NCBI GenBank assembly: GCA_900317505.1
Contig: ONHB01000015.1
Span: 15,831 to 79,830, forward strand
DNA length: 64,000 bases
DNA from: an uncultured Lachnospiraceae bacterium
Lineage (GTDB): Bacteria; Bacillota; Clostridia; Lachnospirales; Lachnospiraceae
Reading direction: 5' to 3'
Part shown: in pieces, positions 41,372 through 43,089 of the stretch
Position numbering within the stretch: position 1 is the first letter of the stretch
Layout of the letters: each line of letters begins with the position of its first letter
Position numbers and translations under genes: made by a program
The notes under the pieces: model-generated
Database searches by the model: none
Seen by the model: only the letters and a program-made list of their open reading frames with translations
What the model was told of the DNA's origin: nothing

Positions 41372-41605
41372 GATTACGTCACACAAAAAAAGAAGTAGGG
41401 CATTGAAGAAAATCATGAGAAATGATACCATAGGTTCATAGATGTGAATGTTATATAAGTGAATTACATGGCGAATATGACATAGGCGGATTTCGCAAAG
41501 AAGGTGGGGATACATAGATGCACATTATCTTTTTTGTGTTTTTATAATACACTTAGCAAAGATTATAGCATTCATACAGTATTACAGAAGATTGGAGGCT
41601 GGTAA

Positions 41606-42655
41606 ATGGCTCTTATAGATACATATCGACACAATGTAACCAGGAAGAGAGATGAAATCGCTAAACTTACTTCAGACAAAGCAAAAGAGAAAGATAAAAT
41701 AGCCAAAGCAAGGATGAAGATTGACAGTGCAAATTCTGCAATTGGTCACACAAAAAATACATCAACTATAAAATCAAAATTGAGAGACATTTCCAATGCA
41801 GAGAAAATTATTACAGCAGCAGAAAAGAAAATATCAGAATTGGAGAAGAAGCTTTCTAAAGCAGAAAAAGATTTAGCAGAAGAGCAAAAAAAAGTGGAGC
41901 GAGAAGAAGAGAAGGCACATAAACAGCGCATGAATGAAGAAATAAAAATGCAGAAAAAAACACAGAGACAAATTTCTGATTTGAGTAGAACTATGCAGTC
42001 GCACGCGAAAATTCAAGATGAGATACATTCACAAATACAAGAACTACAAAAACTGCCAGAAAACATAACGGTACTTTTCCTGGCAGCAAATCCTATTGAT
42101 ACACCCTCGTTGAGACTTGACGCAGAGGCAAGAGCTATTCAGGAGACGATTCGTAAATCTGAATATCGAGATACATTAAAATTCGAGACGCGCTGGGCAG
42201 TTAGAACCTCTGATATACTTCAGGCCATAAATGAAGTCAATCCTGATGTTATTCATTTCAGTGGACACGGAGCACCAAATGGAGACCTTGCATTTGAAAA
42301 CATTAACGGAGAAATGAAATTGGTGAGTAAAGAAGCAATGACTCAAACAATCATGACACTTTCAGATAAAGTGAAATTGATGTTCTTCAACGCCTGTTTC
42401 TCATCAACACAAGCTCAGAGCGTAGTTGAATACGTAGATGTAGCAATAGGAATGAATACTTCGATTGGTGACGAAGCTGCACTCGTGTTTGCGTCACAAT
42501 TCTATTCATCAATTGGCTTTGGGAAGAGTATTAAAACAGCATACGATCAGGCAAAGGCTGCCTTGATGCTTGAAGGAATACCAGAGGAAAAGACACCAGA
42601 ACTATATGTAAGAGATTCACTTAATGCAGAGGATCTTGTGTTAGTGAAAATGTAA
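41606..42655 (+). CDS. coiled-coil protein with a C-terminal CHAT/caspase-like (His-Cys dyad) domain
   Basis: The N-terminal ~150 aa are coiled-coil and K/E-rich. The C-terminal ~190 aa carry ITVLFLAANP...DVIHFSGHG...KLMFFNACFSS. This is the HxGHG and xNAC pattern of CHAT, clan-CD peptidases. Confidence 0.6.
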   Translation: MALIDTYRHNVTRKRDEIAKLTSDKAKEKDKIAKARMKIDSANSAIGHTKNTSTIKSKLRDISNAEKIITAAEKKISELEKKLSKAEKDLAEEQKKVEREEEKAHKQRMNEEIKMQKKTQRQISDLSRTMQSHAKIQDEIHSQIQELQKLPENITVLFLAANPIDTPSLRLDAEARAIQETIRKSEYRDTLKFETRWAVRTSDILQAINEVNPDVIHFSGHGAPNGDLAFENINGEMKLVSKEAMTQTIMTLSDKVKLMFFNACFSSTQAQSVVEYVDVAIGMNTSIGDEAALVFASQFYSSIGFGKSIKTAYDQAKAALMLEGIPEEKTPELYVRDSLNAEDLVLVKM

Positions 42656-42670
42656 GGCGAGGTTTTAATT

Positions 42671-43033
42671 ATGATTATCAGCGAAAGAATTATAAAGGTT
42701 ATGCAGGAACGCAATATGACACAGGCGGATTTTGCAAAGCAGGTTGGTATTTCAACCAGTACCATAAGCGAATGGAAAAAGAGAAAAACAAATCCTACTG
42801 TGGAAAAGATAATGGATATTTGTAATGTCTTACAAATTACGCCGGAGCAGCTTCTTACCGGTAAAGGAATTGAGGATGAGGAAGAAATTGCCGCTTCAAG
42901 TCCTGAGAGTAAATTTACTCCAGGAGATGTTCAGATGATTGAAGATTATCATAACCTCAGAGAAGAGCAGCAAAAGCGTCTTATGGCTTATATGGAGGCT
43001 CTGAAGAAGATAGAGAGTCTTGAAGATATATAA
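42671..43033 (+). CDS. XRE-family HTH transcriptional regulator
   Basis: HTH_3 (MTQADFAKQVGISTSTISEWKK). It lies 15 nt downstream of the CHAT-like gene. Confidence 0.8.
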   Translation: MIISERIIKVMQERNMTQADFAKQVGISTSTISEWKKRKTNPTVEKIMDICNVLQITPEQLLTGKGIEDEEEIAASSPESKFTPGDVQMIEDYHNLREEQQKRLMAYMEALKKIESLEDI

Positions 43034-43055
43034 ACAAGATGTGTAAATTAAATAT

Positions 43056-43089
43056 CATTTGAGGTTCCAATTTGGAACCTCAAATGAAA
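43056..43089. repeat. perfect 15-bp-arm palindrome (catttgaggttccaa at ttggaacctcaaatg)
   Basis: I read it directly. One arm recurs inside the downstream ORF6N gene at ~43352-43372 (attggaacctcaaatgatgaaaa). Confidence 0.7.

What the first reader, a model, noticed from the sequence alone, without database searches (positions are those of the whole stretch)
41606..43033. Standalone coiled-coil/CHAT (caspase-like) protein paired with an XRE regulator inside a mobile island: candidate abortive-infection or defence effector
The 349-aa protein has an N-terminal coiled coil of ~150 aa and a compact C-terminal domain carrying the His/Cys dyad pattern of CHAT, clan-CD peptidases (VIHFSGHG ... KLMFFNACFSS, preceded by LFLAANP). 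CHAT proteases are executioners in several prokaryotic immune systems, including type III-E Craspase, CBASS/Avs-like fusions and effector-associated-domain systems. This gene has no TPR, Cas, cyclase or ATPase partner. Its only apparent partner is an XRE HTH gene 15 nt downstream. It sits in a low-GC island beside a MobC-like gene and a serine recombinase. I do not recognise a two-gene coiled-coil/CHAT plus XRE module as a named system.
Basis: partly seen in the sequence, partly recalled or inferred. Interest (0 to 1): 0.7.

Follow-up and report, generated by a model that had tools for sequence, protein, structure and literature searches.

The report
Standalone coiled-coil caspase-like (CHAT) defence candidate
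The gene encodes a small caspase-like protease on a long coiled-coil stalk that travels between bacteria as a single-gene cassette and sits among anti-phage genes, so it is probably a self-contained suicide-type immune protein; the regulator gene next to it is not its partner.

Summary

The proposed two-gene module does not hold. Of 80 genomes with full-length homologues, one has a similar XRE gene nearby. Among close XRE relatives, 4 of 52 have CHAT upstream, while 51 of 61 have an ORF6N gene downstream. DNA homology to two unrelated contexts stops at 41539 and 42649, so the CHAT gene moves alone. A decayed XRE 5' fragment lies just upstream of it.

The coiled-coil domain is homologous to that of PADLOC candidate PDC-S66, which carries a TIR domain instead of CHAT (hhalign 99.6%, E 1.4e-24). 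So one stalk carries either of two effectors.

Homologues sit inside type I R-M operons (8 of 80 loci have such genes nearby), beside Avs3 and a dGTPase-family gene in E. coli, and on plasmids, but not in phages.

It is most likely a single-protein abortive-infection effector. No family member has been tested experimentally. I rate it a new variant of a known kind.

The parts
41606..42655 (+). CDS of the 349-aa coiled-coil/CHAT protein, including the TAA stop
   Evidence: ORF list. 1968 database homologues; the top 120 are mostly ~349 aa and nearly all carry PF12770.
41539..42649 (+). Independently mobile cassette: the gene plus 67 nt upstream. This is the only DNA shared with the 88-89% identical copies in unrelated contexts.
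   Evidence: blastn against L008 and L098 gives homology over exactly 41539-42649.
41519..41548 (+). Best sigma-70-like promoter match of the region (TGCACA-18-TATAAT). A GGAGG ribosome-binding site follows at 41595-41599.
   Evidence: Consensus scan, 10 of 12 matches; sequence read. A consensus match only, not shown to be functional.
41612..42046 (+). N-terminal antiparallel coiled-coil hairpin (res 3-147: helix 3-47, loop 48-51, helix 52-147). Homologous to the N-terminal domain of PADLOC PDC-S66.
   Evidence: AF2 model, pLDDT ~90-96. PDC-S66 hit E 2.9e-17. All 39 diverse N-termini hit PDC-S66. hhalign 99.6%, E 1.4e-24. P0281 model has the same helices, 3-46 and 51-143.
41747..41779 (+). Hairpin-tip motif (res 48-58, HTKNTSTIKSK; family consensus R-T-K-S-x-S-T-x-x-S-K). 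The best conserved part of the coiled coil.
   Evidence: A1: T49 invariant, R48 and K50 at 90% or more. S53 82% and K58 91% in 34 divergent full-length proteins. The PDC-S66 proteins share S-x-S-x-L-x-S-K.
42065..42610 (+). Compact CHAT / caspase-hemoglobinase-fold domain (res 154-335)
42266..42268 (+). Codon of His221 (second His of HFSGHG), the predicted catalytic histidine
   Evidence: Invariant in A1 and 100% in the divergent set. Aligns with the GHG histidine of SAVED-CHAT, which is catalytic H375. Codon checked.
42395..42397 (+). Codon of Cys264 (NACFS), the predicted catalytic cysteine
   Evidence: Invariant. Aligns with the NAC cysteine of SAVED-CHAT, which is catalytic C422. Codon checked.
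42671..43033 (+). XRE/Cro-C1 HTH gene (120 aa). Part of the element backbone and partner of the downstream ORF6N gene; probably co-transcribed with the CHAT gene here, but not part of the CHAT system.
   Evidence: Pfam. No terminator-like site between the two genes. ORF6N downstream in 51 of 61 and CHAT upstream in 4 of 52 loci of XRE relatives.
41474..41511 (+). Decayed 5' fragment of an XRE gene (…NMT*ADFAKKVGI…), a 33/38-nt direct repeat of 42713-42750 inside the intact XRE gene. Marks the CHAT cassette as an insertion into the XRE-ORF6N backbone.
   Evidence: the repeat finder family D1; translation and alignment.
43055..43087 (.). Perfect 16+16 palindrome and bidirectional terminator-like hairpin after the XRE gene. 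Probable end of the CHAT-XRE transcript.
   Evidence: Terminator scan; inverted repeat I9.

Best explanation
The 349-aa protein is a self-contained, single-gene immune candidate of the abortive-infection type. It has two parts. The N-terminal part is a ~145-residue antiparallel coiled-coil hairpin with a conserved Ser/Thr/Lys-rich tip. The C-terminal part is a minimal caspase-fold CHAT cysteine protease with a His221/Cys264 dyad.

Proposed mechanism (inferred): in uninfected cells the protease is kept apart or inactive. A phage- or plasmid-derived cue acts on the fast-evolving coiled coil, or on a host complex it guards, such as a type I R-M enzyme. The cue makes the protein cluster or re-pack. 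This brings CHAT domains together into an active dimer or filament, as in SAVED-CHAT and caspases. The active protease then cleaves host and/or phage proteins and stops growth before phage release.

The same coiled-coil module drives a TIR domain in the sister family PDC-S66. TIR domains are also switched on by self-association. This is why I assign the stalk the sensing and assembly role and treat CHAT as a swappable effector.

The downstream XRE gene is not a partner. It belongs with the ORF6N gene and the serine recombinase of the mobile-element backbone into which the CHAT cassette was inserted.

Shown computationally: fold, dyad, domain homology, lack of a conserved partner, cassette borders and genomic contexts. 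Inferred: protease activity, defence function, trigger, activation by clustering and substrates.
For: Fold and active site:
- Pfam CHAT is above its cut-off.
- The AF2 model has pLDDT 89.
- A profile hit to 8tl0 (E 4.2e-19) places H221 and C264 on its catalytic H375 and C422.
- Both residues are invariant in 35 and in 34 homologues. C264 is at least 90% conserved across 150 cluster representatives and H221 is at least 90% conserved across 82 of them with other architectures.

Standalone gene:
- Flanking genes differ in size, strand and family across 80 genomes.
- DNA homology to L008 and L098 is limited to 41539-42649.

Defence and mobile context:
- In the window it lies with SoFic-like Fic and two PDC-S05 genes on an element carrying NikA/MobC and a serine recombinase.
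- It lies between hsdS and hsdR in L005, L045, L061 and L083. Type I R-M genes lie within 6 kb, on the same strand, in 8 of 80 loci.
- It lies beside PBECR4, WYL and a PLD-helicase in L001.
- It lies beside an 'abortive infection family protein' on a Shewanella conjugative plasmid.
- It lies beside a dGTPase-family gene and Avs3a/b in an E. coli island.
- It is absent from 50,697 phage records.
- Distribution is patchy across many phyla at 44-55% identity.

Modularity:
- The N-terminus is homologous to PDC-S66, a coiled-coil/TIR protein. One such gene sits just upstream of hsdM.
- The ~195-aa CHAT module recurs at ~50% identity fused to TIR, EAD1, EAD10, a bacterial death-like domain, kinases, WD40 and in tandem copies.
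- The N-terminus evolves about twice as fast as CHAT: 24% against 47% mean pairwise identity.

Precedents from the literature:
- SAVED-CHAT is active only in the filament.
- SpbK, a helical N-domain plus TIR, is activated by clustering on a phage portal.
- Borvo is a validated single-gene CHAT abortive-infection system.
- The type IV Thoeris caspase degrades EF-Tu and other proteins.
Against: - No member of the coiled-coil/CHAT family or of PDC-S66 has been tested; PDC-S66 is described as uncharacterised.
- Defence-island association is shown by examples and by a rough R-M enrichment, not by a genome-wide statistic with a background.
- About 90% of loci have no type I R-M gene within 6 kb, so the guard idea cannot be general.
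- Oligomeric state, trigger and substrate are unknown. Only a monomer could be modelled.
- In this window the gene is probably co-transcribed with the XRE (15-nt gap, no terminator), so local regulation by that protein is not excluded.
- The window protein has His at position 48, where the family has Arg.
Confidence: 0.6

Rival explanations
1. Toxin-antitoxin or addiction pair. CHAT would be a toxin neutralised or repressed by the XRE protein encoded 15 nt downstream (HigB/HigA-like gene order), stabilising the mobile element.
For: The two genes are 15 nt apart on the same strand with no terminator between them. The exact pair recurs in many metagenome contigs carrying the same element. The 93%-identical P0001 copies also have the XRE downstream.
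Against: A similar XRE is near 1 of 80 CHAT homologues, on the opposite strand. HTH_3 occurs in only 4 of 144 flanking ORFs. CHAT is upstream of only 4 of 52 XRE relatives, whereas ORF6N is downstream of 51 of 61. The CHAT-to-XRE spacing is 15, ~58 or ~200 nt in different elements. The 91-92% identical CHAT genes in L008 and L098 have no XRE. An XRE 5' relic upstream of CHAT shows the cassette was inserted into an XRE locus.
Confidence: 0.07
2. A PrrC-like guard of type I restriction-modification. The coiled coil docks on the Hsd complex, and the protease is released when a phage anti-restriction protein disables the enzyme. This is a special case of the best explanation's sensing step.
For: The gene lies inside hsd operons, between hsdS and hsdR, in L005, L045, L061 and L083. 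Type I genes lie within 6 kb on the same strand in 8 of 80 loci. The P0001 copies abut hsdM/hsdS. The PDC-S66 example L101 is directly upstream of hsdM. From my own knowledge, PrrC and RloC occupy such positions.
Against: 72 of 80 loci, the window and the E. coli island show no type I gene within the fetched flanks. R-M operons are also general hotspots for defence-gene insertion.
Confidence: 0.15
3. An effector that depends on an unlinked signal, working like SAVED-CHAT or the type IV Thoeris caspase. It would be activated by a nucleotide or other messenger made by another system in the cell.
For: Its closest structural relative is the cA3-activated SAVED-CHAT. The same CHAT module is often fused to, or exchanged with, TIR domains.
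Against: There is no SAVED, CARF, SLOG or other ligand-binding domain. The only non-catalytic part is a two-helix coiled coil. No cyclase, TIR or CRISPR gene is a conserved neighbour. The PADLOC SAVED_CHAT profile matches only its CHAT part (res 167-312 to profile positions 303-449 of 498).
Confidence: 0.08
4. Not immunity. It could be a housekeeping or structural coiled-coil protease, or a function of the element itself such as processing transfer or recombination proteins.
For: It sits in a mobilisable element beside NikA/MobC and a recombinase. Integrases are the commonest neighbours across genomes, 10 of 144 flanking ORFs.
Against: No element gene is conserved next to it. It occurs in chromosomal R-M operons and defence islands that show no transfer genes. 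Its distribution is patchy across phyla, and it shares a domain with a defence candidate.
Confidence: 0.1

Closest known systems
PADLOC phage-defence candidate PDC-S66 (coiled-coil + TIR single-gene candidate; uncharacterised)
   Same: Homologous N-terminal two-helix coiled-coil hairpin of the same length and with the same tip motif: E 2.9e-17 for the window protein, 39 of 39 family N-termini hit, hhalign 99.6%, and matching AF2 helices. Both are single genes, and both are found in or next to type I R-M operons.
   Different: The effector domain differs. PDC-S66 carries a ThsB1-like TIR domain, while this protein carries CHAT. Profile positions 136-282 of PDC-S66 are unmatched.
SAVED-CHAT (PDB 8tl0), cA3-activated protease of a type III-B CRISPR/CBASS hybrid locus
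   Different: The sensor there is a SAVED domain that binds cA3, and it has a dedicated substrate (PCaspase) encoded nearby. Here the sensor position is occupied by a coiled coil, and there are no CRISPR, cyclase or substrate genes.
Borvo (BovA), validated single-gene CHAT-protease abortive-infection system of E. coli
   Same: One gene with a Pfam PF12770 CHAT protease domain. It acts by abortive infection and is triggered by a phage protein, the DNA polymerase. This is the same overall logic as proposed here.
   Different: No PADLOC match named BovA was returned for the window protein at E<=1. None appeared among the 25 most frequent PADLOC families for 82 proteins carrying this CHAT module. 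So it is not the same sequence family as far as I could test. The BovA architecture was not available to compare.
SpbK of ICEBs1 (helical N-terminal domain + TIR)
   Same: A small single-chain protein encoded on a mobile element. A helical N-terminal sensor recruits the effector onto an oligomeric phage protein, and clustering switches the effector on. This is a working model for how a coiled-coil/effector protein could sense infection.
   Different: The SpbK N-domain is a 94-residue four-helix bundle, not a 145-residue hairpin, and its effector is TIR. Only a weak PADLOC spbK hit was seen, for the PDC-S66 protein P0281 (3.6e-4), and none for the window protein.
Craspase TPR-CHAT (Csx29), type IV Thoeris caspase, and gasdermin-activating proteases
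   Different: Each of those needs partner genes: gRAMP/Csx30, a TIR protein or a gasdermin. No such partners are found here.

Membership tests
CHAT domain / clan CD caspase-fold peptidases (Pfam PF12770) | Sequence match to the family model above its curated cut-off | tested here: met
   PF12770 E 6.4e-10, 39.4 bits against a gathering score of 24; res 166-321 match profile positions 101-267 of 289.
CHAT domain / clan CD caspase-fold peptidases (Pfam PF12770) | Caspase-hemoglobinase alpha/beta fold | tested here: met
CHAT domain / clan CD caspase-fold peptidases (Pfam PF12770) | Conserved catalytic His (followed by Gly) and Cys, after consecutive core strands | tested here: met
   H221-G222 follows strand 215-219 and C264 follows strand 258-261. 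Both are invariant. They align with SAVED-CHAT H375 and C422.
CHAT domain / clan CD caspase-fold peptidases (Pfam PF12770) | Peptidase activity | not testable with these tools
   Needs purified protein or in-vivo cleavage assays.
Peptidase C14 (caspase/metacaspase proper, PF00656) | Match to the family model above its cut-off | tested here: not met
   E 0.029, 14.5 bits against a cut-off of 21.4.
PADLOC PDC-S66 | N-terminal coiled-coil hairpin domain | tested here: met
   E 2.9e-17 over res 4-139 to profile positions 3-135. 39 of 39 family N-termini hit. hhalign 99.6%, E 1.4e-24. Same helix boundaries in the models.
PADLOC PDC-S66 | C-terminal TIR domain (full-length match to the 282-position profile) | tested here: not met
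   Only profile positions 3-135 match. True members P0281 and P0282 match positions 1-280 and carry TIR. No TIR hit for the window protein.
Borvo (BovA) | Sequence membership in the BovA family | tested here: inconclusive
   No hit named BovA in the PADLOC scan at E<=1. I could not confirm that a BovA model is in this copy of the library, although SoFic from the same study is. I had no BovA sequence to compare.
Borvo (BovA) | Single gene with a CHAT protease domain that confers abortive infection, triggered by phage DNA polymerase | not testable with these tools
   The single-gene and CHAT parts are met. The phenotype and trigger need experiments (literature).
SAVED-CHAT / CRISPR- or CBASS-linked CHAT effectors | SAVED (or CARF) nucleotide-sensor domain and a linked cyclase or Cas10 | tested here: not met
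   The PADLOC SAVED_CHAT profile matches only its CHAT part (E 0.0027, profile positions 303-449 of 498). The N-terminus is a coiled coil. No such neighbours here or among the 80 loci.
Craspase TPR-CHAT (Csx29) | TPR domain and association with gRAMP/Cas7-11 | tested here: not met
   No TPR match in the protein and no cas genes around it.
Type II toxin-antitoxin pair (toxin + XRE-HTH antitoxin) | Conserved adjacency of the two genes across homologues | tested here: not met
   1 of 80 and 4 of 52. Variable spacing. Cassette borders exclude the XRE.

The most novel reading that the evidence does not exclude
A ~145-residue coiled-coil hairpin with a conserved Ser/Thr/Lys tip is a portable infection-sensing and assembly module. 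It can switch on either of two proximity-activated death effectors. One is a minimal caspase-like protease (this family, found in at least 80 species from many phyla). The other is a TIR NADase (PDC-S66). Together they would form a previously unrecognised class of single-chain immune proteins. Some members may act as guards of type I restriction enzymes.
Probability: 0.35. Interest if true: 0.7.

Novelty: new variant of a known kind. Interest (0 to 1): 0.5.

Why it matters
Caspase-like proteases are now known as executioners in several bacterial immune systems. All the understood ones need partners: a CRISPR complex, a cyclic-nucleotide sensor, a TIR enzyme or a gasdermin. This 349-aa protein would be about the smallest self-contained version, a stalk plus a 190-residue protease.

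The same stalk is found on a TIR domain. That offers a clean natural experiment on how one sensor can drive two unrelated effectors that both require self-association.

The family is widespread, and an E. coli copy exists. So the trigger, the substrates and the role of the conserved hairpin tip are directly testable. The result also corrects the annotation of the locus: the XRE gene belongs with the ORF6N (PDC-S05-like) gene.

Tried and rejected
- Searching with the N-terminal 150 aa alone returned only truncated fragments of the same family. A profile of 39 N-termini was needed to reach the coiled-coil/TIR proteins.
- NCBIfam gave only compositional coiled-coil hits (SMC, Rad50, PspA), all far below their cut-offs. 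The PADLOC JetC, LmuB and ZorA hits are of the same kind: only 1 of 39 N-termini reaches 1e-3.
- Peptidase_C14 is below its threshold.
- No match in 50,697 phage records.
- Staphylococcus plasmid hits are 141-aa CHAT remnants, not intact genes.
- Searching for other E. coli relatives by distant blastn found only the same 2 genomes. I could therefore not reach Borvo by DNA similarity.
- Literature searches for a coiled-coil/CHAT defence protein found no study of this family. PDC-S66 is mentioned only as an uncharacterised PADLOC hit.
- The PADLOC scan of the neighbours was dominated by redundant type I S-subunit models and added little.
- I considered and rejected the toxin-antitoxin reading; see the rival explanations.
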